19,923 bases of DNA, taken from UHGV virus genome UHGV-0168719; one strand, 5' to 3'. The position numbers and the translations under genes were made by a program. A model generated the notes under the pieces. The model made no database searches, had not been told where the DNA came from, and was given only the letters and a program-made list of their open reading frames with translations. The stretch comes from a virus. Shown here in pieces: positions 328 to 19,850 of this stretch (the stretch's first letter is position 1; each line of letters opens with the position of its first letter).

Positions 328-483
328 ATGAAGAATGATAAATTAACCAACGAACAGCAGGCGCAGAACAAGTCAAACCTGAAAAAGTGGGCTGGTTATG
401 TTTGGAAATTAATCAAATGGGGTATTAGACTGTTTGATTTAGCCACTCGAGCACTGGACTACTTTGAAGGGGGTGATGAGTAA
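328..483 (+). CDS. Small hypothetical protein (51 aa), first ORF of the RT operon
   Basis: ATG at 328 preceded by a consensus AAGGAG (316-321) with 6-nt spacer; product MKNDKLTNEQQAQNKSNLKKWAGYVWKLIKWGIRLFDLATRALDYFEGGDE has a polar N-terminus then a W/K-rich amphipathic segment. No family recognised. Confidence 0.45.
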   Translation: MKNDKLTNEQQAQNKSNLKKWAGYVWKLIKWGIRLFDLATRALDYFEGGDE

Positions 484-519
484 TGCGTCCTCCCTAGTTT
501 CAATAGCATGGAGTTGCCT

Positions 520-840
520 ATGTTACACAGAGCCCTTCGTTTAATAAGGCAATACCATAAAGAGTCATTGGTTGATTTATCAACATCTTTAGGTATTCCA
601 AAAGAAAAAATAGTAGAACTCGAAAGTGGGGTTTGGTCGCCTACAATTGATGTTTTACAGCGTTACGCCTCCCATTTCGATATGCCGGTATCTTCTTTAG
701 TATTTTTTTCAGAATCGTTAGGTACGCAGGGGCGTTTATCTAAGCGTTTCCGTTTAAATTTAGCTGGTAAAGTATTAGATGTTATTGAGTGGGCGAATAA
801 GAAAAATGAAAAGACGAATAAAACTCAAAATTTCCACTAA
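520..840 (+). CDS. XRE-family (Cro/C1-type) helix-turn-helix protein, about 106 aa
   Basis: LRLIRQYHKESLVDLSTSLGIPKEKIVELESGVWSPTIDVLQRYASHFDMPVSSL fits the XRE HTH pattern. GGAG (510-513) sits 6 nt before ATG 520; the track's ATG 508 has no RBS. Stop TAA 838-840. Confidence 0.75.
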   Translation: MLHRALRLIRQYHKESLVDLSTSLGIPKEKIVELESGVWSPTIDVLQRYASHFDMPVSSLVFFSESLGTQGRLSKRFRLNLAGKVLDVIEWANKKNEKTNKTQNFH

Positions 841-1756
841 AAATAAATCTTACGATATAATTGATTCGCCGTTTTATAAAATGAGAAGTAAAAGGAAATT
901 GGCTTCTTTATTGGGGGTTGATGTAGGGGATTTATCAACCTTAAAAAAAGATGAAGGCAATTATTCTATTTTTGAACAGTTATCTAAAAACGGAAAGCCA
1001 CGTAAGATACAAAAACCATTAGAAAAATTAGATGTGGTGCATACTCGTATTGCAAGTCTGCTATCGCGAATTACCTTGCCAGATTATCTACATTCTGGAA
1101 AGAAGGGATGTTCTAATGTTACTAATGCTAAAATCCACCTTAATAATGAAAGGTTGATGACAACCGACATCAGGGCTTTTTTTCCATCAACTACTAGAGA
1201 AATGATATTTTCATTCTTTTTTTCTGTTATGAAGATGTCATCTGATGTTGCGGATGTATTATCGTATATATGTACTTGCTATGGGCGTTTGCCTACAGGT
1301 AGCAGGATTAGTATGCCTCTTGCATATTTTGCAAATTCAAGAATGTTCGGAGAAATACACCAACTTTGTAATAAACTACACGTAAATATGTCTGTTTATG
1401 TTGATGATCTAACTTTTTCAGGACAAAACGTTAATAGACTATTTTGTTCAGTGATTCGCAAAATAATAAATAAGCATGGTCATGTGATGCATGCGGATAA
1501 AACAAAAATTTATAGTAGAGAAAAGCCTAAGTTGGTAACAGGTGTTATTGTTTTGGGCGGTTCTTTAAAAGTCAGGAATAAGCAGCATCTTTTAATGTCT
1601 CAAGAAATTGAATATTGGAAAATGATAAAGGATGCAGCGTGTGCAAGAGAAACTCATACTGCCAAAAAGTTATTTGGACGATTGCATTCTATGGGGGTAA
1701 TTGAACAACGTTATAGATCAAAGGTGCTTACATTAAAAGCAAGTACTGCACTTTAA
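806..1756 (+). CDS. Reverse transcriptase, retron-type (about 316 aa from ATG 806; alternative starts 779 or 881)
   Basis: RT motifs in the translation: F..K.G..R.I..P...L...H.RI (fingers), NAKIHLNNERLMTTDIRAFFPS, YVDD catalytic motif (nt 1397-1408), and the retron-characteristic VTG motif KPKLVTGVIVLGG (nt 1535-1543). Size fits retron RTs rather than the larger Abi-type RTs. Start 806 gives an N-terminal length like Ec86 and overlaps the HTH gene by 35 nt in another frame; 881 gives no overlap. Confidence 0.85.
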   Translation: MKRRIKLKISTKNKSYDIIDSPFYKMRSKRKLASLLGVDVGDLSTLKKDEGNYSIFEQLSKNGKPRKIQKPLEKLDVVHTRIASLLSRITLPDYLHSGKKGCSNVTNAKIHLNNERLMTTDIRAFFPSTTREMIFSFFFSVMKMSSDVADVLSYICTCYGRLPTGSRISMPLAYFANSRMFGEIHQLCNKLHVNMSVYVDDLTFSGQNVNRLFCSVIRKIINKHGHVMHADKTKIYSREKPKLVTGVIVLGGSLKVRNKQHLLMSQEIEYWKMIKDAACARETHTAKKLFGRLHSMGVIEQRYRSKVLTLKASTAL

Positions 1757-1807
1757 TACAGGTTCCTGTAAGTGATTATATTGTTCTTAAGATACTTACT
1801 GATGTTA

Positions 1808-1838
1808 TTTCCCCGTAGCCTTAATTTCTGCGGGGAAG
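1808..1838. terminator. Possible hairpin between the convergent RT and FRG genes
   Basis: tttccccg (1808-1815) pairs with cggggaag (1831-1838) across a 15-nt loop, inside the 108-bp convergent intergenic region; the loop is large and there is no clean U-tract. Confidence 0.25.
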
Positions 1839-1864
1839 TATGGAGATATTTTGGTTATGGAATG

Positions 1865-3229
1865 CTAATTTTTTAATGTGTATTTTTCTGTGATTAGTTT
1901 CATTGTTCTTTCCAATCCTAAATATACAGTGGCATCAGTAATATTGAGCACGGCAAGTTCTTTTAAAATTTTCTTTTTGTCTCTGATGTTTATTTTTTCT
2001 GTCTTAAAGTTGTATGGTGAATTATCTGCCTGATCGTTGGATATCTCAGGAAAAACGGCGTTATTACCGAATAATAAAAAGGCACCGGATTGAGATGATA
2101 TTCTTTCATTATTTATCCTGCTTTTTACAAAAATTATCTTTTCCAAATCATCTGGATTTATTATGCTTTGAAAATATGGTTTTTCATGCTTTATGGATTC
2201 TAAGAGTTTAAGGCAAGCATGAGAGTTGTTAAAATCATTATTTCTTTCTTCGAAAGAAAGCTTGTCTTTCATGTCTTTTGATAGCATGCATAAATTAGAT
2301 ATGCAACTGACAGTGTCGGAATCGAAAAATTTAATGTTCTCTCTGTGTGTTTTAAATATTATTACTTGACCATCGATATCGTTTTTGTCGGAATTTATAC
2401 TACTGCATGCAAAATAAAGTGCAATTAATGGATTTGATGTGATGTCAAGTAAGCGAGTAGGTATGCCATAATGTTGCATTCTTACAAGTTTATCAAGCAT
2501 TGATGTATCATCAATGAATTCTGAGGGTCTTGCGCTCAATGCTTCTTTAACAAGGTTGATTTCATTATGTAGAAATTTATAGTTCCCATTTTCATATTTT
2601 CTGAAAAGAGATGGTGCAAGTTCATAAGATGAATCTGAATGACCCCTGTAAAAAATCTCCTCATCCATATCTGCTGTTATATGGAGAACTTTTTCAATAA
2701 ATTCTTGTAAACTATTTACGGTTAATAATGTGCTATCTTCGTCTGGGAGAGGCGCTGGACTGCTATCCACTTGTGCATTTTGGTTAATACCAAATGTCTT
2801 AAGGATATCATCTATATTTTTGTCTTTTATGGCCCAGTGTGTTCTTTTAAGGCCATAAGTTCCGAGTTCTAAACTGCTTTCAACACTTTTGGCGTCTGAT
2901 ATTTTGATTTCATTGTGTGTATGGGTGATTGCAAATTGGAAGTTGATTTCTTTTCCCTTAATGTGAATATTTGAAATTCTTCCAATTCGTATGTCGACAT
3001 AATAAGGTTTTGCTCCCTCTATTTGATAAGCTTCACTCATGAATATTGTTGGGAGTTTTTCAAGATAAGATAGTACATTGCTGCTTAATGGGGATAGTTT
3101 TTTGCGAATACCATCGGAGGTGTTTTCAAACATTCGTGATAAAAGAAATGAGAATTCTCCATTATTTTGGCTGAATGGTTTCCAGTGGTCGTAGTGGTCG
3201 GGAAAACCACCCATAATTAAATTAATCAT
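1865..3229 (-). CDS. FRG-domain protein (454 aa) with an unassigned ~190-aa N-terminal region
   Basis: Central region carries the FRG-domain signature: EEIFYRGHSDSSYELAPSLFRK ... LVRMQHYGIPTRLLDITSNPLIALYFAC ... ERISSQSGAFLLFG (roughly nt 2070-2655). AT-rich gene convergent with the RT operon; ATG at 3229. Confidence 0.8.
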   Translation of the reverse strand: MINLIMGGFPDHYDHWKPFSQNNGEFSFLLSRMFENTSDGIRKKLSPLSSNVLSYLEKLPTIFMSEAYQIEGAKPYYVDIRIGRISNIHIKGKEINFQFAITHTHNEIKISDAKSVESSLELGTYGLKRTHWAIKDKNIDDILKTFGINQNAQVDSSPAPLPDEDSTLLTVNSLQEFIEKVLHITADMDEEIFYRGHSDSSYELAPSLFRKYENGNYKFLHNEINLVKEALSARPSEFIDDTSMLDKLVRMQHYGIPTRLLDITSNPLIALYFACSSINSDKNDIDGQVIIFKTHRENIKFFDSDTVSCISNLCMLSKDMKDKLSFEERNNDFNNSHACLKLLESIKHEKPYFQSIINPDDLEKIIFVKSRINNERISSQSGAFLLFGNNAVFPEISNDQADNSPYNFKTEKINIRDKKKILKELAVLNITDATVYLGLERTMKLITEKYTLKN

Positions 3230-3512
3230 AATTACCTGTTCATCTGATGTAGGTGTAGGAATGCTTGTTGTTTGTTATGGTAATGTTAACGCTTGTTGGT
3301 GGCAACTACTATTACTACTTGCTGTTAGAGCTAAGACATTTTTTGATTGCTTGTAATGATAGCGAGCCTTTAACTAACTGGGATTTTGAAAAAATAAATG
3401 AATTGTCAATTTCCTGAGATTTTTATTACTGCATTCATTAAGTGCATTTTTTTGCGTGTGTTAGTTGCCATGCTTTTCCATGTTTGTTACCAGTGTTGAT
3501 GCGGTTACTGTG

Positions 3513-12044: not shown

Positions 12045-12474
12045 TGCCGTCACGGTGCTGAAAACTAACCCCGATATGCTGCGGATATTCGTTGATAACG
12101 GGAGTATTGCCTCCACACTGGCGACGTCGCTGTCATTCGAAAAGCGTTACACGCTCAATGTCATTGTGACCGACTTTACCGGTGATTTTGACCTGCTCAT
12201 CGTGCCGGTGCTGGCGTGGCTGCGGGAAAATCAGCCCGACATCATGACCACCGACGAAGGCCAGAAAAAGGGCTTCACGTTTTATGCGGACATCAACAAT
12301 GACAGCAGCTTTGATATCAGCATCAGCCTGATGCTGACCGAGCGAACGCTGGTCAGTGAGGTGGACGGCGCACTGCATGTGAAGAATATCCCGGAACCTC
12401 CGCCGCCGGAGCCGGTCACCCGCCCGGTGGAGCTTTATATCAATGGCGAACTGGTGAGCAAGTGGGATGAATGA
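12007..12474 (+). CDS. R: Tail completion protein R, 155 aa
   Basis: Position and length match P2 R. Confidence 0.9.
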   Translation: MLKPDSLRRALTDAVTVLKTNPDMLRIFVDNGSIASTLATSLSFEKRYTLNVIVTDFTGDFDLLIVPVLAWLRENQPDIMTTDEGQKKGFTFYADINNDSSFDISISLMLTERTLVSEVDGALHVKNIPEPPPPEPVTRPVELYINGELVSKWDE

Positions 12475-12919
12475 GTTTAAGCGTTTTGAAGACCGGCTGA
12501 CCGGACTTATTGAATCGCTGTCACCGTCAGGGCGTCGACGACTGAGTGCCGAACTGGCGAAACGTCTGCGTCAGAGTCAGCAGCGTCGGGTGATGGCACA
12601 GAAAGCCCCGGACGGCACACCCTACGCACCACGCCAGCAGCAGAGCGCCAGAAAAAAGACCGGTCGCGTTAAGCGAAAAATGTTTGCGAAACTTATCACC
12701 AGTCGTTTTTTGCATATCCGCGCCAGCCCGGAACAGGCATCAATGGAGTTTTACGGCGGGAAGTCACCGAAAATCGCCAGCGTGCATCAGTTCGGTCTGT
12801 CGGAAGAAAACCGGAAAGACGGTAAGAAAATTGATTATCCGGCGCGTCCTCTGCTCGGCTTTACCGGTGAGGATGTGCAGATGATTGAAGAGATTATCCT
12901 GGCTCACCTCGACCGTTAG
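12467..12919 (+). CDS. S: Tail completion protein S, 150 aa
   Basis: Position and length match P2 S; last gene of the O operon. Confidence 0.9.
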   Translation: MNEFKRFEDRLTGLIESLSPSGRRRLSAELAKRLRQSQQRRVMAQKAPDGTPYAPRQQQSARKKTGRVKRKMFAKLITSRFLHIRASPEQASMEFYGGKSPKIASVHQFGLSEENRKDGKKIDYPARPLLGFTGEDVQMIEEIILAHLDR

Positions 12920-13076
12920 TTGTGCCATTTCTTGCGCCTTATTGATGAAATATCGCCATTATCCTCTTGCGGCATCCTTTTTATATTTCAACTAAATGAA
13001 CTTTAATTGTAACTTGAAAATGTGCAGTGGATGAGAGTTATAAGGACTCATCGAAGGTAGTCGCTTTATCATATAA

Positions 13077-13099
13077 GGCCACGATAAAATATCGTGGCC
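13077..13099 (-). terminator. Hairpin terminator candidate downstream of the minus-strand cargo gene
   Basis: ggccacgat-aaaat-atcgtggcc (9-bp stem, 5-nt loop), 34 nt beyond the stop at 13133-13135 and followed on the minus strand by AU-rich sequence. Confidence 0.4.
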
Positions 13100-13132
13100 A
13101 AGGTGTCTTATGTTTGTGAGCTAATTAGATTG

Positions 13133-13876
13133 TTATCTGGTCAAATAAGTGAGGGTACTCTCTTCAGGTATTAGTTGGATATCTCCACCCCAGACGTCCA
13201 TTATGTTTTTTCTTGCTTCCCAATATTCTGGATATGTGTTTTGATGAGCATTGTAGATACAAGCTAAAAGCCAGTGCTGGTATTTAAGAGTTGTGTATTG
13301 GTATTCCTCTATTATCGGCAAGATGAATAAATTTTTTTGTTCTGTTGACTTCAGGTATTCTTTTGATTTACCAGAAAGCCGGTCATTCTCCAGTATGGTT
13401 TCAATCTTAAATGCAAATCCGTGTATGTTTATTTTTTTCTGGAGGTGCATAAATGATGATATTAATGGGGAGATCATTTTTTGATGGGTTAGGATGTTTC
13501 TTAAATCTTCCATTAATTTTATGATTGGATTTTTTAAAAATTCTTCATTGATGATTTCTCTGGATTTATTGGTAATATCATCAATATTTAATACATTGAT
13601 TTTATGTAGATTACGCGTTGAATCTCTAAATGATAATGCTGAGGAGATATAGTTGAGAAAATGTCTTGATATATTTATGTGCTGTTTTTTTAATTCATTT
13701 CTATTAAGTGAGTAGTGGAATACAATTTCAGGAGAGTTGAATTTGCTTAATTCACTTTGAATCACCTCATAATTGGCAATGTGTATATGTCCAAGTAAAT
13801 TGGTGTCGGAAATTTTTAAATATTCTTTATGGGCGATGGTGTCTTTTTGTTTTTCCCAGATTTGATATTTATCCAT
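13133..13876 (-). CDS. Hypothetical protein (247 aa) in an AT-rich insertion between S and V
   Basis: Minus-strand ORF with AAGGAG 7 nt upstream of the ATG at 13876 (track ORF extends to 13975 with no RBS). No family recognised; contains an Rx4H motif (LRNILTHQK). P2 has a nonessential orf30 in this position; relatedness was not assessed. Confidence 0.7.
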   Translation of the reverse strand: MDKYQIWEKQKDTIAHKEYLKISDTNLLGHIHIANYEVIQSELSKFNSPEIVFHYSLNRNELKKQHINISRHFLNYISSALSFRDSTRNLHKINVLNIDDITNKSREIINEEFLKNPIIKLMEDLRNILTHQKMISPLISSFMHLQKKINIHGFAFKIETILENDRLSGKSKEYLKSTEQKNLFILPIIEEYQYTTLKYQHWLLACIYNAHQNTYPEYWEARKNIMDVWGGDIQLIPEESTLTYLTR

Positions 13877-13895
13877 GCTTCGGCTCCTTCTTGGT

Positions 13896-13913
13896 TGTGC
13901 CGAAAATGATACA
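13896..13913 (+). promoter_or_regulatory. TGT-N12-ACA dyad (Ogr-type late activator site) of the V-operon promoter
   Basis: Exact TGTgccgaaaatgatACA centred about 55 bp upstream of the V ATG (13960); the P2 late-promoter element is TGT-N12-ACA as I recall it. Confidence 0.5.
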
Positions 13914-13959
13914 ACGGGTTGCAATAGTTTTTCGAGCATATGTTCCCCATTATTGTCAT

Positions 13960-14595
13960 ATGAGCACATTATCAAGTATTCAGGAACTCGCGCGCGTACT
14001 GCGCAACATGATTCGCACCGGCATTATCGTCGAAACCGACCTTAACGCCGGTCGCTGCCGTGTGCAGACCGGCGGCATGTGTACCGACTGGCTTCAGTGG
14101 CTGACCCATCGCGCCGGACGTTCGCGCACATGGTGGGCACCTTCCGTGGGGGAGCAGGTGCTGATTCTGGCCGTGGGCGGTGAACTCGACACGGCGTTCG
14201 TTCTGCCGGGGATTTATTCCGGTGATAACCCCGCGCCGTCTGCGTCGGAGGATGCCCTGCATATCCGTTTCCCTGACGGGGCGGTGATTGAGTATGAACC
14301 CGAAACCAGTGCACTCACGGCAAGCGGAATTAAAACGGCCAGCGTGATGGCTTCTGATTCTGTTACTGCCACGGTGCCGGTGGTCACGGTGAAAGCATCA
14401 ACCCGCGTCACCCTGGACACACCGGAAGTGGTCTGCACCAACAAACTGACTACCGGCACGCTGGAAGTGCAGAAGGGCGGGACGATGCGCGGCAACATCG
14501 CGCATACCGGCGGTGAACTCTCATCAAACGGTAAGGTACTGCATACCCATAAACACCCCGGCGACAGCGGCGGCACAACAGGGGGACCTCTATGA
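13960..14595 (+). CDS. V: Baseplate spike/assembly protein V, 211 aa
   Basis: MSTLSSIQELARVLRNMIRTGIIVETDLNAGRCRVQTGGMCTDWLQW... matches P2 V; start at ATG 13960 (track ORF begins at an upstream TTG). Confidence 0.95.
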   Translation: MSTLSSIQELARVLRNMIRTGIIVETDLNAGRCRVQTGGMCTDWLQWLTHRAGRSRTWWAPSVGEQVLILAVGGELDTAFVLPGIYSGDNPAPSASEDALHIRFPDGAVIEYEPETSALTASGIKTASVMASDSVTATVPVVTVKASTRVTLDTPEVVCTNKLTTGTLEVQKGGTMRGNIAHTGGELSSNGKVLHTHKHPGDSGGTTGGPL

Positions 14596-16456: not shown

Positions 16457-17613
16457 CAGTGAAATACTACGCCATTCTGACTAATCAGGGCGCAGCACGC
16501 CTGGCTAACGCGACGATGCTCGGCAGTAAGCTGAATCTGACGCAAATGGCCGTTGGTGATGCGAATGGTGTCTTGCCGACACCAGACCCGGCACAGACAA
16601 AACTGATTAATCAGAAACGCATTGCACCGCTGAATCTTCTGAGTGTTGACCCGAACAACCAGAGCCAGATTATTGCGGAGCAAATCATCCCTGAGAACGA
16701 GGGCGGATTCTGGATCCGTGAGATTGGGCTTTATGATGATGAAGGCGTACTCATTGCGGTGGCGAACTGCCCGGAAACGTACAAACCGCAGTTGCAGGAA
16801 GGAAGTGGTCGTACCCAGACTATCCGCATGATTCTGGTTGTCACGAATACCGAAGCTATTACGCTGAAAATCGACCCGTCGGTGGTATTGGCGACCCGTA
16901 AATACGTGGATGATGAAGTCCTGGAATTAAGGCTGTATGTGGATGACCAGATGAGAAAACACATTGCCGCACAGGACCCTCATACCCAGTATGCACAGAA
17001 ACATAATCCGACATTTACCGGAGAACCAAAAGCGCCGACGCCTGCCGCAGGAAATAACACCACGCGGATTGCGACCACTGCGTTTGTACAGGCCGCTATT
17101 ACCGCTCTGATTAACGGTGCGCCAGCCACACTGGACACACTGAAAGAAATTGCCGCGGCCATTAACAATGACCCGAAATTCAGCACCACCATTAACAATG
17201 CGCTGTCAGGTAAGCAGCCACTGGATGAGACGCTGACTCATTTGAGTGGAAAGGATGTTGCCGGTCTTCTCGCATACCTTGGTTTGGGAGAAGCGGCGAA
17301 AAGGAATGTGGGGACTGGGGCGAATCAGATACCTGATATGTCATCATATGCATCAGGTTCAGGCTGGCGAAAAATGCCAGATGGTTCAATTGAACAGTGG
17401 GGAGGAATTCGTTTTCCTGGTGAACACGAGCCTGTATCCGCCAATGTTTCATTCCCAATTCCATTTACACAGACACCGGACATTATAATTGTGTTCGATG
17501 GTGGTTTCGGGGGCGGGAATATGTGGGGGGCGACCAACTGGAGCACTACCGGCTTCATAGCTCACTGCAATTATGGTCTTGAAGGTGGTGCGTTTTTCGC
17601 TAAGGGCTGGTAA
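16453..17613 (+). CDS. H: Tail fibre protein H in its current orientation: constant N-terminal part plus short variable C-terminus
   Basis: N-terminus resembles P2 H (MAVGD..G.LP.PD, GGFW.RE.GLYDD.G.LIAVAN, GSGR.QT.RM...). The reading frame runs through the left crossover site (17267-17292, encoding LAYLGLGE) into a 107-aa C-terminus unrelated to the P2 H tail. Confidence 0.9.
17267..17292. other. Left crossover site of the invertible segment (26 bp, gix/cix-like)
   Basis: ttctcgcataccttggtttgggagaa matches the reverse complement of the right site at 21 of 26 positions, including 14 consecutive identical bases (ttggtttgggagaa). Confidence 0.7.
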
Positions 17614-18056
17614 TGATGAAATATCTGTACGTAAACAACCTGGCATATCCTTACGAACTTCAGTCTCTTTATGTTGAAAAAGGTGAATGGCCTGAAGAAA
17701 AAGGTGTTGATATAGACGAAGTAATTTTCAGGGAATATTTCTATGATACACCACCAGAAGGAAAATACAGATGTGTCGGAGAGGATGGACTGCCTGCATG
17801 GGCAGATATTCCTCCACCAACACGTGAAGAACAAATTGCATCAGCCGAAACTAAAAAGCAGCAATTGATTAACCAGGCCAACGAATACATCAACAGTAAA
17901 CAATGGCCAGGTAAAGCATCAATTGGTCGTCTGAAAGGTGAGGAACTGGCGCAATATAATTTGTGGCTGGATTATCTGGACGCACTGGAGCTGGTCGATA
18001 CTTCCAGTGCACCAGATATTGAATGGCCTACTCCTCCGGCAGTTCAGGCCAGATGA
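17613..18056 (+). CDS. Tail fibre assembly protein for the current orientation, 147 aa
   Basis: Position directly after H with TAATG coupling and AAGGG RBS; C-terminus LVDTSSAPDIEWPTPP parallels the C-terminus of the opposing tfa (DTSTAPDVIWPELPEE). Confidence 0.85.
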   Translation: MMKYLYVNNLAYPYELQSLYVEKGEWPEEKGVDIDEVIFREYFYDTPPEGKYRCVGEDGLPAWADIPPPTREEQIASAETKKQQLINQANEYINSKQWPGKASIGRLKGEELAQYNLWLDYLDALELVDTSSAPDIEWPTPPAVQAR

Positions 18057-18630
18057 CATCCGGCGCGGTGCTGGTATCTGTTGCCGTCACCGCGTCAATG
18101 TAATCCAGCACGGCGTTAAGTCGGGTTGTTTCTGCCTGCGTCAACTTCCGTCCGGCCTGTAATTTCAGCTGAATCAGACTAATGGAAGCCATTGCTGCAT
18201 TAATCAGTGACTGGCGCTGTGCTTCTGCCGCGTCTAGTGCGGCGCTATGCTGTGCCTCGGTATCCGTCACCCATTTCTCACCATCCCATTTATCGTATGG
18301 CGTTAATGGGGCGATAGTGGTTGTATTTTCAGGGTAATCACCCGGAACTGTGATTTCTTTGGTATCTCCCGTTTCGGTACTATAGACAACTTCACCGCGA
18401 TGGTCTGGCACATATTCCCATGAATTTAAATCTACAGAGCGACAGATTGCATAACCAGCTTTATGTGTACCTGGTGCATCCAGACAGGAACATGCCGGGA
18501 TACCGACGCCGACAGCGAGATATTCAGTTGATGTAGAAATATATTCCCGCGTTTCGCCATCATAGTTATGTACGATGATTTCCCCATCATTTAAAGCGTA
18601 ACCGTCTTTTCCCAAAATAGCCTGTTCCAT
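18028..18630 (-). CDS. Alternative tail fibre assembly protein for the inverted orientation, 200 aa
   Basis: Minus-strand ORF directly downstream of the alternative H cassette; C-terminus resembles the other tfa; its 3' end overlaps the plus-strand tfa by 29 bp. Confidence 0.85.
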   Translation of the reverse strand: MEQAILGKDGYALNDGEIIVHNYDGETREYISTSTEYLAVGVGIPACSCLDAPGTHKAGYAICRSVDLNSWEYVPDHRGEVVYSTETGDTKEITVPGDYPENTTTIAPLTPYDKWDGEKWVTDTEAQHSAALDAAEAQRQSLINAAMASISLIQLKLQAGRKLTQAETTRLNAVLDYIDAVTATDTSTAPDVIWPELPEE

Positions 18631-19142
18631 TTATGCAGCCCTCACAATGTAGTTAAATGCAATGTTTCGCGGGCTACCATCACCGGCGCCGGAACTGACA
18701 TGATTGGTTCTATCCATTCGTTTACTGTCATTTGTTGTTCCACTCCCATCCTTCCACGAATACAATATCCCGCCATCGCCAATGCTCAACTGCACCGCAA
18801 ATACGGATGATGTACCTAATTCACCAACATCTCTAGCCATGAGTGGGTTCCCTGTCCATCCATGCATTTCATGGTTATGTTCAAGGATAGATGCTGCCTG
18901 ACTTGAAAGCAGCAGTCTCGCGGAATCAACACCTCGCCCATCATCCCACCCGCGAATAAACTCACCGCGCAAATCCGGTAATTTTAACTTTGGGTAAGCC
19001 TTTGCCAGTTTTGGGTACTCTTCGGCAGAAAAAGGTGCACCGTTGCATTTCAGCCAGCCTGTTGGTGGTGTGGCTGAAGGCCACGGAACAGGCACACCAA
19101 CGGGTAACGCTGAGCCTTCTCCCAAACCAACGTTTATGAAAA
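18631..19142 (-). CDS. Alternative tail-fibre C-terminal cassette (H'), promoterless, expressed only after inversion
   Basis: Translation from the crossover site (GLGEGSALPVGVPVPWPSATPPTGW ... NIAFNYIVRAA) resembles the P2 H C-terminus; in frame with the GLGE codons of the site. The track ORF runs to 19170 but that extension lies outside the segment. Confidence 0.8.
19117..19142. other. Right crossover site of the invertible segment (26 bp)
   Basis: ttctcccaaaccaacgtttatgaaaa, inverted relative to the left site, about 50 bp upstream of the invertase gene. Confidence 0.7.
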
Positions 19143-19197
19143 TGCAGAGATAACGGGCAACTGGCATCATCTCCGGTTTTTATTCAGGGGGATGCTC

Positions 19198-19791
19198 ATG
19201 CTTATTGGCTATGTGCGCGTGTCAACAAATGACCAGAACACGGAATTGCAGCGTAACGCGCTGGAGTGTGCAGGATGTGAGCTGATTTTTGAGGATAAAA
19301 TCAGCGGCACGAAGTCCGACCGACCGGGACTGAAAAAACTGCTCAGAACATTATCAGCAGGTGACACTCTGGTGGTCTGGAAGCTGGACAGGCTGGGGCG
19401 TAGTATGCGGCATCTGGTCATTCTGGTTGAGGAACTGCGCGAACGCGGCGTTAATTTTCGCAGCCTGACGGATGCCATTGATACCAGCACGCCGATGGGA
19501 CGTTTTTTCTTTCATGTGATGGGTGCCCTGGCTGAAATGGAACGAGAACTCATTGTCGAGCGGACTCGCGCCGGACTGGAAGCGGCCAGAGCTAAAGGTC
19601 GTATTGGTGGCAGACGTCCGAAACTCACCGCGAGTGAGTGGGAGCAGGCCGGGCGGTTGTTGGCTGCAGGGGAATCACGTCAACGCGTGGCACTGATTTT
19701 TGATATTGGCCTGTCCACGCTCTATAAAAAATTCCCCGCCTCCGTGACAAAAAATAAATTGTGTCATCCCTTAGCCAACCGGGACAAATAG
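19198..19791 (+). CDS. Serine DNA invertase (Hin/Gin/Pin/Cin family)
   Basis: MLIGYVRVSTNDQNTELQRNAL with catalytic Ser, ...LVVWKLDRLGRSMRHL..., C-terminal HTH region GRLLAAGESRQRVALIFDIGLSTLYKKFPAS; start taken at ATG 19198 after GGGGGA (the track's ATG 19192 is also possible). Confidence 0.9.
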   Translation: MLIGYVRVSTNDQNTELQRNALECAGCELIFEDKISGTKSDRPGLKKLLRTLSAGDTLVVWKLDRLGRSMRHLVILVEELRERGVNFRSLTDAIDTSTPMGRFFFHVMGALAEMERELIVERTRAGLEAARAKGRIGGRRPKLTASEWEQAGRLLAAGESRQRVALIFDIGLSTLYKKFPASVTKNKLCHPLANRDK

Positions 19792-19850
19792 CCTGACATC
19801 TCCGGCACAACTGAAAATATCACTCACCCATTAACCACGGAGTTAAACGG

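What the first reader, a model, noticed from the sequence alone, without database searches (positions are those of the whole stretch)
12920..13959. Second AT-rich insertion between S and V carrying a reverse-oriented 247-aa gene with an Rx4H motif
A single minus-strand gene with a strong RBS and a downstream hairpin sits between the O and V late operons, a known variable position (P2 orf30 slot). I do not recognise the protein. It contains one Rx4H motif (LRNILTHQK), the minimal signature of HEPN-type RNases found in abortive-infection and toxin proteins, but a single short motif is weak evidence.
Basis: partly seen in the sequence, partly recalled or inferred. Interest (0 to 1): 0.6.

Follow-up and report, generated by a model that had tools for sequence, protein, structure and literature searches.

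The report
Solo RNxxxH gene in P2 S–V slot
A P2-like E. coli prophage carries, in a swappable slot between two tail genes, one foreign gene from a widespread uncharacterised protein family whose only invariant residues include a HEPN-RNase-type R-N-x3-H motif, which makes it a credible but unproven anti-phage candidate.

Summary
An AT-rich cassette (window 12930-13958, about 31% GC against about 57% in the flanks) fills the gap between gpS and gpV of a P2-like prophage. It carries one minus-strand gene (13133-13876, 247 aa) with an AAGGAG RBS and a 10-bp hairpin downstream. Most sampled E. coli P2-like prophages have this slot empty. Others carry unrelated cargo, including P2 orf30.

The gene is real (dN/dS about 0.16). 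It is unrelated to Orf30 and matches nothing in Pfam, NCBIfam or PADLOC. A profile search found 321 relatives in bacteria and archaea. A confident AlphaFold model (pLDDT 96) puts the motif at the end of a helix, where HEPN domains have it.

No fold search or profile comparison linked the family to a known HEPN. Distant relatives are stand-alone genes, and some lie beside TIR/NACHT, toxin-antitoxin, reverse-transcriptase or integrase genes.

Best reading (about 0.45): a latent solo HEPN-like RNase that gives prophage-encoded abortive infection, like HepS. This would be a new family of a known kind. No activity or phenotype has been shown.

The parts
12930..13958 (.). Variable AT-rich cassette filling the gpS-gpV intergenic slot. 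It replaces the 69-nt spacer of empty-slot prophages.
   Evidence: blastn against the empty-slot locus L008 and against P2, R18C, L009, L010 and L011: homology stops at 12919-12929 and resumes at 13959/13960 (14002 for L009). GC profile.
13133..13876 (-). CDS of 247 aa (29.5 kDa, pI 7.8), a member of an uncharacterised RNxxxH family (PHROG 12680).
   Evidence: ORF. dN/dS 0.16 against the 76% allele. Full-length PHROG hit. 321 relatives found. AF2 pLDDT 95.9.
13484..13501 (-). Codons for R126-N127-I-L-T-H131, the family's invariant R-N-x3-H motif and the putative catalytic site.
   Evidence: R and H are invariant in 113 of 113, N in 94 of 113 (otherwise Q or D; H in some relatives outside the alignment). 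The motif lies at the C-terminal end of helix 117-132.
13884..13889 (-). Shine-Dalgarno sequence AAGGAG, 7 nt upstream of the ATG.
   Evidence: Read directly from the sequence.
13906..13935 (-). Candidate sigma-70 promoter (TCGAAA-18-TATCAT) for the cargo gene. It overlaps the PV region and is unverified.
   Evidence: Consensus scan. The number of such sites is not above the shuffle expectation.
13077..13099 (.). 10-bp GC-rich hairpin (GGCCACGAT...ATCGTGGCC) between the convergent O operon and the cargo gene. It is a likely transcript end or stabiliser.
   Evidence: RNA fold -16.8 kcal/mol, z = -4.7. Not a canonical intrinsic terminator.
13896..13913 (+). TGT-N12-ACA box, the pattern I recall for Ogr-type activator sites, centred 55 nt upstream of the gpV ATG. 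It sits inside the cassette, 7 nt from the cargo gene's RBS.
   Evidence: Pattern search; sole occurrence in the window. Same geometry as the annotated activator site of P2 PV.
12467..12919 (+). gpS (virion morphogenesis / tail completion), the conserved left flank.
   Evidence: ORF. Annotation of near-identical records.
13960..14595 (+). gpV (baseplate assembly / spike), the conserved right flank.
   Evidence: ORF. Annotation of near-identical records.

Best explanation
The cassette is a horizontally acquired accessory gene ('moron') in a little-studied variable slot of P2-like phages, between the gpS stop and the gpV start. It encodes a stand-alone, HEPN-like, metal-independent endoribonuclease.

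Inferred mechanism: the protein is made in the lysogen from its own promoter, which diverges from the late promoter PV. It stays catalytically latent, since no antitoxin partner exists. A cue from an infecting phage activates it. R126, N127 and H131, probably paired across a homodimer interface as in other HEPN enzymes, then cleave RNA (tRNA, mRNA or rRNA). This aborts the infection and protects the lysogenic population.

Shown here:
- The gene is real and under purifying selection.
- It sits in a swappable slot.
- The family is large, stand-alone, and taxonomically patchy across bacteria and archaea.
- The R-N-x3-H motif is invariant and ends a helix.

Inferred only: HEPN homology, RNase chemistry, dimerisation, latency and trigger, and the defence phenotype.
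For: Slot and acquisition:
- The cassette is 31.5% GC against about 57% in the flanks.
- 1628 of 5426 complete E. coli genomes hold this S-V region. Most sampled loci are empty (1155-bp span) and many carry the orf30 type. 21 genomes carry this gene, 18 of them with at least 80% of the query covered.
- The cargoes differ and are mutually unrelated.
- All 14 IMG/VR phage contigs, and a diverged P2-like phage with a 58% allele, hold the gene in the same slot and the same opposite orientation.

Gene reality:
- dN/dS is 0.16.
- It stays intact in a prophage whose gpV is a pseudogene.

Motif and structure:
- The profile search gave 321 relatives, nearly all with RN[YF]xxH at the same position.
- The invariant columns are N75, R126 and H131 only.
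- The residue after R is polar, as in the HEPN definition, and the motif ends a helix, as HEPN helix 3 does.
- A helical insert precedes that helix and a beta-hairpin follows it, as described for Csx1.
- A conserved polar stripe runs along the preceding long helix: E68, R71, N75, D85, R88.
- hhalign against HepT puts RNILTH on RNKIVH.

Context:
- There is no partner ORF, repeat array or Rfam RNA in the cassette.
- No neighbour is conserved across 15 genomes.
- Relatives lie next to TIR/NACHT genes, PemK-RHH plus DUF4238, MNT-HepT, a reverse transcriptase, an integrase or a serine recombinase in 6 of 10 contexts examined.
- Long (~700 aa) forms fuse the domain to a conserved ~440-aa extension, an architecture that would fit an effector joined to a sensor (my inference).

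Precedent: HepS of Gifsy-1 is a solo prophage HEPN abortive-infection protein (PMC13043305).
Against: - No homology to any known HEPN family could be shown. Pfam, NCBIfam and PADLOC gave nothing for the protein, for 113 relatives or for the family consensus.
- PDB sequence-profile searches found nothing.
- hhalign against HepT gave P = 0.07 and probability below 1%.
- My assignment of HEPN helices rests on the model's secondary structure only. I could not inspect coordinates, so I could not verify that N75 and R88 lie near R126 and H131, or that a dimer forms.
- The defence context of relatives is anecdotal: 4 of 10 contexts were uninformative and there is no statistical control.
- A promoter for the gene is not established.
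- No experiment bears on it.
Confidence: 0.45

Rival explanations
1. The family has a new fold that is not homologous to HEPN. The invariant N75, R126 and H131 form a different active or binding site, for example a phosphoesterase, a nucleotide- or second-messenger-binding sensor, or a DNA-acting enzyme. The R-N-x3-H resemblance is convergent.
For: - No structural or profile link to any HEPN family was found, despite a model with pLDDT 96.
- The protein is twice the size of a minimal HEPN domain, with 30-residue helices and a three-stranded beta element.
- Further conserved residues (N35, Y192, W202, H211) are not part of the HEPN signature.
Against: - The motif matches the HEPN signature in three independent respects: spacing, a polar residue after R, and position at a helix C-terminus before a loop.
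- HEPN families are notoriously undetectable from one another. The 2013 survey warns that alignments outside the conserved motifs are uncertain (PMC3710099).
Confidence: 0.2
2. The gene serves the phage itself rather than defending the host. It could be an RNase or RNA-binding factor that tunes late-gene or host transcripts, takes part in the interplay with P4-type satellites, or acts in lysogenic conversion.
For: - Its start lies 7 nt from the Ogr-type box of PV, so its expression is probably coupled to late-promoter activity.
- It sits inside the morphogenesis gene block.
- Other cargoes of the slot, such as the membrane protein Orf30, have no known defence role.
Against: - Most sampled related prophages lack any cargo here, so it is dispensable for the phage.
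- The family occurs as stand-alone genes in non-phage contexts across bacteria and archaea.
- It remains intact in a prophage with a broken gpV.
Confidence: 0.15
3. It is the toxin of an addiction or toxin-antitoxin module. Its antitoxin would be an unrecognised small RNA or peptide in the 200-nt untranslated part of the cassette, or an antisense transcript from PV, and the module would stabilise the prophage.
For: - HEPN toxins commonly belong to toxin-antitoxin pairs such as HepT-MNT and RnlA-RnlB (PMC3710099).
- About 200 nt of non-coding AT-rich DNA (12930-13132) and a convergent O-operon read-through could supply antisense RNA.
Against: - There are no repeats, no Rfam hit and no conserved small ORF.
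- No neighbour is conserved in 15 distant loci or in the contigs examined.
- Solo HEPN proteins without an inhibitor exist (HepS).
Confidence: 0.1
4. It is a chance ORF or a decaying remnant in AT-rich junk DNA.
For: AT-rich DNA yields long ORFs easily. Curated libraries give no annotation.
Against: - dN/dS is 0.16 over dS of about 0.8.
- Full-length homologues exist at 58-98% identity in the same slot.
- There are 321 remote relatives.
- The AF2 model has pLDDT 96.
Confidence: 0.01

Closest known systems
HepS (STM14_3211) of Salmonella prophage Gifsy-1, a solo HEPN abortive-infection protein (PMC13043305)
   Same: - Both are single prophage-encoded genes in an accessory slot, with no partner or inhibitor gene.
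- Both have an Rx4H motif.
- HepS is the model for the proposed mechanism: a latent oligomer activated by a phage structural protein, which then acts as an anticodon nuclease.
   Different: - No sequence or fold match to any PDB chain was found. I did not verify that the HepS structure is in that PDB copy.
- The phage type differs (P2-like myovirus against lambdoid siphovirus), as does the genomic slot.
- Nothing is known of a trigger or target here.
HepT / HEPN toxin of HEPN-MNT toxin-antitoxin modules (Pfam PF01934)
   Same: - The local pattern is the same: F..P...h..hRNxhxH at the end of a helix.
- hhalign aligns RNILTH with HepT RNKIVH in register.
   Different: - The alignment is not significant (P = 0.07).
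- HepT is about 110 aa, has an adjacent MNT antitoxin and an Rx4HxY motif.
- This protein is 247 aa, stands alone, and has Q132 where HepT has D and M134 where HepT has Y.
Lactococcal abortive-infection HEPN proteins (AbiV, AbiD/D1/F, AbiU2) and Cas13 HEPN motifs
   Same: - Single-protein abortive-infection effectors have RNxxxH-type motifs.
- The family consensus RNYxLH resembles the RNYxxH motif that I recall for Cas13 HEPN domains.
- Three relatives gave weak PADLOC hits to Cas13Nterm (E = 0.003).
   Different: - No Pfam or PADLOC model of these families matches.
- I could not confirm that the weak Cas13 hits cover the motif.
P2 Orf30 (NP_046770), the classical occupant of the same slot
   Same: Same position (between the gpS stop and the gpV start), same minus-strand orientation, non-essential, and similar size at 261 aa.
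   Different: It is unrelated in sequence (hhalign probability 0.15%). To my reading of its sequence, Orf30 has hydrophobic stretches that could span a membrane and lacks the RNxxxH motif.

Membership tests
HEPN superfamily (Anantharaman et al. 2013, PMC3710099) | A conserved Rx4-6H motif with a polar residue (N, D or H) directly after the R. | tested here: met
   R126 and H131 are invariant in 113 of 113 relatives. Position 127 is N in 94, otherwise Q or D (H in some relatives outside the alignment).
HEPN superfamily (Anantharaman et al. 2013, PMC3710099) | The motif lies at the C-terminal end of core helix 3 and the start of the loop to helix 4, with an insert between helices 2 and 3. | tested here: met
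   In the AF2 model (pLDDT 95.9), helix 117-132 ends with R126...H131 and a loop follows. Helix 99-113 is inserted after the long helix 59-90. A beta-hairpin follows the motif, as in Csx1. The helix assignment is mine, from secondary structure only.
HEPN superfamily (Anantharaman et al. 2013, PMC3710099) | A four-helix up-down bundle that superposes on solved HEPN domains. | tested here: inconclusive
HEPN superfamily (Anantharaman et al. 2013, PMC3710099) | Significant profile similarity to an established HEPN family. | tested here: not met
   There was no Pfam HEPN hit for the protein, for 113 relatives or for the family consensus. hhalign against a 58-sequence HepT alignment gave P = 0.07 and probability 0.8%. 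HHpred against full profile libraries could not be run.
HEPN superfamily (Anantharaman et al. 2013, PMC3710099) | A conserved acidic residue in helix 2 (Ex3[KR]) close to the motif. | tested here: inconclusive
   Helix 59-90 carries conserved E68-x2-R71, the invariant N75 and D85-x2-R88. The spacing differs from Ex3[KR], and spatial proximity could not be checked.
HEPN superfamily (Anantharaman et al. 2013, PMC3710099) | Metal-independent endoRNase activity, usually from a composite site at a dimer interface. | not testable with these tools
   This needs biochemistry or a multimer model.
Prophage-encoded anti-phage cargo of P2-like hotspots (Rousset 2022 PMC9122126; Moura de Sousa 2026 PMC13586616) | It lies in a variable locus between conserved core genes, with alternative unrelated cargoes and empty states. 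| tested here: met
   The slot is empty in most sampled loci. Other states are the orf30 type, a 347-aa gene, the R18C ORF16 type, or this gene. This S-V slot is not one of the published main hotspots (gpA-gpQ, Z/fun, int side).
Prophage-encoded anti-phage cargo of P2-like hotspots (Rousset 2022 PMC9122126; Moura de Sousa 2026 PMC13586616) | Relatives are enriched next to known defence genes or on mobile elements. | tested here: inconclusive
   6 of 10 distant contexts show neighbours such as TIR/NACHT, PemK plus DUF4238, MNT-HepT, a reverse transcriptase, an integrase or a recombinase. 4 of 10 are uninformative. There is no background control.
Prophage-encoded anti-phage cargo of P2-like hotspots (Rousset 2022 PMC9122126; Moura de Sousa 2026 PMC13586616) | It matches a known defence-system model. 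| tested here: not met
   PADLOC-DB v2 gave 0 hits for the protein and only scattered weak hits for relatives.
Prophage-encoded anti-phage cargo of P2-like hotspots (Rousset 2022 PMC9122126; Moura de Sousa 2026 PMC13586616) | It confers phage resistance when expressed. | not testable with these tools
   This requires plaque or infection assays.
P2 Orf30 family | Sequence homology to NP_046770. | tested here: not met
   hhalign of A2 against Orf30 gave probability 0.15%. tblastn of the protein against 50,697 phage records gave no match.
Type II HEPN toxin-antitoxin module | An adjacent conserved antitoxin gene (MNT or other). | tested here: not met
   No other credible ORF lies in the cassette. 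No neighbour is conserved in 15 genome loci.

The most novel reading that the evidence does not exclude
The RNxxxH family is a structurally new, self-contained sensor-effector immune protein found across bacteria and archaea. It would either be unrelated to HEPN or be a deeply divergent HEPN with a new architecture. The gpS-gpV gap of P2-like phages would then be a previously unexploited defence hotspot whose other cargoes (Orf30, the 347-aa gene, the R18C ORF16 type) are also undescribed immunity genes.
Probability: 0.2. Interest if true: 0.7.

Novelty: new member of a known kind. Interest (0 to 1): 0.55.

Why it matters
Two things would follow if this is confirmed.

First, it would add a new, phylogenetically broad family, currently invisible to Pfam, NCBIfam and PADLOC, to the list of single-gene RNase immune effectors. 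The family has 321 detected members in bacteria and archaea. It includes ~700-aa forms that may carry a fused sensor domain. The E. coli/P2 system is easy to work with experimentally.

Second, it would flag the gpS-gpV slot, known since P2 orf30 but ignored by the hotspot surveys, as another place to look for defence genes. At least four unrelated, uncharacterised cargoes already sit there.

The gene's start also lies almost against the Ogr-dependent late promoter PV. This gives a testable link between expression of the cargo gene and the phage's own lytic programme, and so bears on how the prophage avoids harming itself.

Tried and rejected
- Direct library look-ups of the protein found nothing: Pfam, PADLOC, NCBIfam. 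PHROGs gave only family 12680, of unknown function.
- The first AF2 run, with 5 close homologues, was unusable (pLDDT 49). A 113-sequence alignment fixed this.
- PDB sequence searches with two profiles and with the core consensus found nothing relevant.
- Scanning all 113 relatives, the family consensus and its sub-regions against Pfam, NCBIfam and PADLOC found no HEPN or other consistent family. The Cas13Nterm hints (3 members, E = 0.003) could not be followed up.
- Repeating the 5.8-billion-protein search at E <= 10 added no borderline hits.
- hhalign against P2 Orf30, R18C ORF16 and a single HepT sequence showed no relation. hhalign against a purpose-built HepT alignment gave the right register but was not significant.
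I replaced it with a degenerate DNA pattern for FVQDLRNYxLH, which found 15 loci.
- I looked for a second HEPN motif in the C-terminal extension of the long forms. The [RKH]HxxE[HP] site is not conserved as Rx4H, so I rejected it.
- I looked for an antitoxin: small ORFs, repeats and Rfam families all gave nothing.
- I had recalled 'TO region' as the name of this slot. The literature shows it refers to the tin-old locus instead, so I dropped the idea.
- R18C's 741-bp ORF in the same slot looked as if it might be the 246-aa allele. It is an unrelated plus-strand gene.

Full report
**1. What is in the sequence**

The window is the late-gene half of a P2-like prophage of E. coli. It is 99.4% identical over the S-V region to a prophage in strain O18 and has P2 gene order.

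- gpS lies at 12467-12919 (+) and gpV at 13960-14595 (+).
- Between them is one substantial ORF, on the minus strand at 13133-13876. It encodes 247 aa from the ATG at 13876.
- AAGGAG at 13884-13889 lies 7 nt upstream of the ATG.
- A 10-bp hairpin (GGCCACGAT/ATCGTGGCC, 13077-13099) lies 34 nt past the stop codon. It folds at -16.8 kcal/mol, z = -4.7, and none of 200 shuffles folds as well. It lacks a U-tract, so the terminator scan did not call it.
- GC falls to 0.28-0.37 across the region against 0.54-0.62 on both sides. The gene itself is 31.5% GC.

**2. It is a cassette in a swappable slot**

The S-to-V segment matches 1628 of 5426 complete E. coli genomes.

- In an evenly spaced sample of those hits, most loci span 1155 bp. 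The slot is empty there: a 69-nt spacer with a strong hairpin runs straight into gpV.
- Many loci span 2029 bp, the P2 orf30 state.
- Rarer states carry a 347-aa minus-strand gene or the plus-strand ORF16 type of phage R18C (PMC6823313).
- The present gene is found in 21 genomes: 18 with at least 80% of the query covered, five of them being an allele of about 80% DNA identity.
- Across all variants, homology stops at the gpS stop codon (12919-12929) and resumes at the gpV start (13959/13960; 14002 for L009).

Inside the cassette is a TGT-N12-ACA box at 13896-13913, centred 55 nt upstream of the gpV ATG. This is the same geometry as the annotated activator (Ogr) site of P2 PV. It lies only 7 nt from the cargo gene's RBS, so the cargo promoter must overlap PV. 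The one consensus candidate, at 13906-13935 on the minus strand, is no better than chance.

Published surveys name other P2 hotspots: gpA-gpQ (old/tin), Z/fun, the int side, and 'within the tail genes downstream of GpL'. They do not describe the S-V slot specifically.

**3. The gene is real and conserved**

- Close homologues at 98%, 76%, 58% and 57% identity are full length.
- The 58% allele sits in the same slot and orientation in a more divergent P2-like phage. So do all 14 IMG/VR contigs that carry the gene.
- Between the window allele and the 76% allele, dS is 0.84 and dN is 0.13, giving dN/dS of 0.16. The flanking genes are about 96% identical over the same comparison.
- In strain 504838 the gene is intact although gpV has an internal stop.
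- P2 Orf30 and R18C ORF16 are unrelated to it, and tblastn against 50,697 phage records finds nothing.

**4. What the protein is**

Curated libraries are silent. Pfam and PADLOC gave 0 hits, NCBIfam gave only noise, and PHROGs gave family 12680 of unknown function. No paper in the searchable library mentions its accessions.

A profile of the five close homologues, searched against 1.84 billion representative proteins, found 321 relatives at E <= 1e-3. Most are about 240 aa. A subset of about 700 aa has the domain at the N-terminus.

- Nearly every relative has RN[YF]xxH at the same position.
- In a 113-sequence alignment (mean identity about 20%) only N75, R126 and H131 are invariant. N35, R88, Y192 and W202 are conserved in at least 90%.
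- A lone Rx4H occurs by chance in 36% of shuffles of this protein. Its absolute conservation is what gives it weight.

With the deep alignment, AlphaFold2 gives pLDDT 95.9 and pTM 0.91. The model has these elements:
- long helices at 14-44, 59-90 and 185-214;
- an inserted helix at 99-113;
- a shorter helix at 117-132 that ends in R126...H131;
- a beta-hairpin at 138-157.

[quoted passage not shown] It also notes a beta-hairpin right after the motif in Csx1. The motif, its polar neighbour, its helix-end position and the insert are all met here. Helix 59-90 carries a conserved polar stripe (E68, R71, N75, D85, R88).

**5. What could not be shown**

- None of the 113 relatives, nor the family consensus, hits any Pfam HEPN family.
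- PDB sequence-profile searches are empty.
- I built a 58-sequence HepT (PF01934) alignment from metagenomic loci. hhalign puts RNILTH on HepT's RNKIVH, with the preceding F..P...h pattern also aligned, but with P = 0.07 and probability 0.8%.

HEPN membership is therefore plausible but not established. I could not inspect model coordinates, so the bundle geometry and any dimer site are untested.

**6. Context of relatives**

A degenerate DNA pattern for FVQDLRNYxLH hit 15 genome contigs, and all 15 encode family members. They come from Alpha-, Beta- and Gammaproteobacteria, Firmicutes, Chloroflexi, Nitrospirae, Acidobacteria, Bacteroidota, Methanothrix and a Woesearchaeote. No neighbouring protein is shared between these loci, so the gene stands alone.

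Ten distant contexts had Pfam-annotated neighbours. Six were suggestive:
- a reverse-transcriptase gene pair;
- PemK-RHH, DUF5677 and DUF4238;
- a TIR / NACHT / TIR cluster;
- MNT-HepT;
- a large serine recombinase;
- a phage integrase.

The other four were uninformative. This suggests a defence or mobile-element association but has no control.

The ~700-aa forms share a conserved ~440-aa C-terminal extension with no Pfam match and no second conserved Rx4H. This layout would fit an effector joined to a sensor. Within the cassette there is no second ORF, repeat array or Rfam RNA that could serve as an antitoxin.

**7. Most likely function**

The best-supported reading is a horizontally acquired accessory gene encoding a stand-alone HEPN-like RNase that works as a prophage abortive-infection effector. 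It would be latent in the lysogen, activated by an infecting phage, and would cleave RNA through R126, N127 and H131.

The closest functional precedent is HepS of Gifsy-1. HepS is a solo prophage HEPN protein with no inhibitor. It forms an inactive tetramer, is triggered by tail-tip proteins, and cleaves tRNA anticodon loops (PMC13043305).

I put about 0.45 on the whole statement. I put somewhat more on 'R/H-dependent nuclease' and on 'defence cargo' taken separately. The rivals are:
- a non-HEPN new fold with a different R/H-dependent activity (0.2);
- a phage-serving RNA factor coupled to PV (0.15);
- a toxin with a hidden antitoxin (0.1);
- a spurious ORF (refuted).

**8. Novelty and verdict**

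The kind of system, a single-gene HEPN-type prophage defence, is known. The family is uncharacterised and absent from Pfam, NCBIfam and PADLOC, and this P2 slot has not been mined. I rate it a new member of a known kind, with interest 0.55.

There is about a 0.2 chance that it is more unusual: a new fold or architecture, and a new defence hotspot. The decisive steps are HHpred and pairwise superposition on HEPN structures, a multimer model, and plaque assays with R126A and H131A mutants.

Noticed in passing
window 400-3500: The first AT-rich island (GC about 0.33) is the classical gpA-gpQ (old/tin) hotspot. It carries a weak-HTH ORF (508-840, +), an overlapping 325-aa reverse transcriptase (779-1756, +; RVT_1 E = 1e-7) and a 454-aa FRG-domain protein on the minus strand (1865-3229; PF08867 E = 2e-21). 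No retron or other Rfam RNA was found in the window. The near-identical prophage in strain CH4804 has HTH + RT but no FRG-domain gene is annotated there.
   Followed up: partly
L035 4904-7051 and L037 613-2754 (Bradyrhizobium); proteins P0029, P0030, P0078, P0084, P0085, P0091, P0120, P0147, P0152: Long forms of the family (~700 aa) fuse the N-terminal RNxxxH domain to a conserved ~440-aa C-terminal extension. The extension has no Pfam match and no Walker A motif. It may be a sensor or regulatory module.
   Followed up: partly
window 13896-13913, relative to 13874-13889: The TGT-N12-ACA activator box of the late promoter PV lies inside the cassette, only 7 nt from the cargo gene's RBS. The cargo promoter and PV must therefore overlap divergently. 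This suggests that cargo expression changes when Ogr fires the late genes.
   Followed up: no
L016 13052-13687 (E. coli 504838): In a prophage carrying the 76% allele, gpV is annotated as a pseudogene (internal stop) while the cargo gene is intact. This fits selection on the cargo that is independent of phage viability.
   Followed up: no
L009 656-1699; L011 571-1311 and L007 881-1621; L006 940-1725: Other occupants of the same S-V slot are also uncharacterised. They are a 347-aa minus-strand hypothetical protein, the 246-aa plus-strand R18C ORF16 type (weak sub-threshold HNH and Endonuclease_1 hints), and P2 Orf30, whose sequence has hydrophobic stretches that look membrane-spanning to my reading.
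   Followed up: partly
window 17600-19800: A lower-GC stretch holds oppositely oriented ORFs (18028-18630 and 18631-19170 on the minus strand; 19192-19791 on the plus strand). The closely related record annotates this part of the prophage as inverted tail-fibre-assembly genes, a gp53-like domain protein and a recombinase (invertase). I did not verify this by alignment.
   Followed up: no
L008 555-640 compared with window 12915-12995: The empty-slot spacer has a strong O-operon terminator hairpin (GCCGCCGG...CCGGCGGC, -21.9 kcal/mol). The window keeps only its 3' half (GCGGCATCCTT followed by a T-run) and does not fold significantly (z = -0.26). The O operon may therefore read into the cassette, antisense to the cargo gene, until it reaches the 13077-13099 hairpin.
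   Followed up: partly
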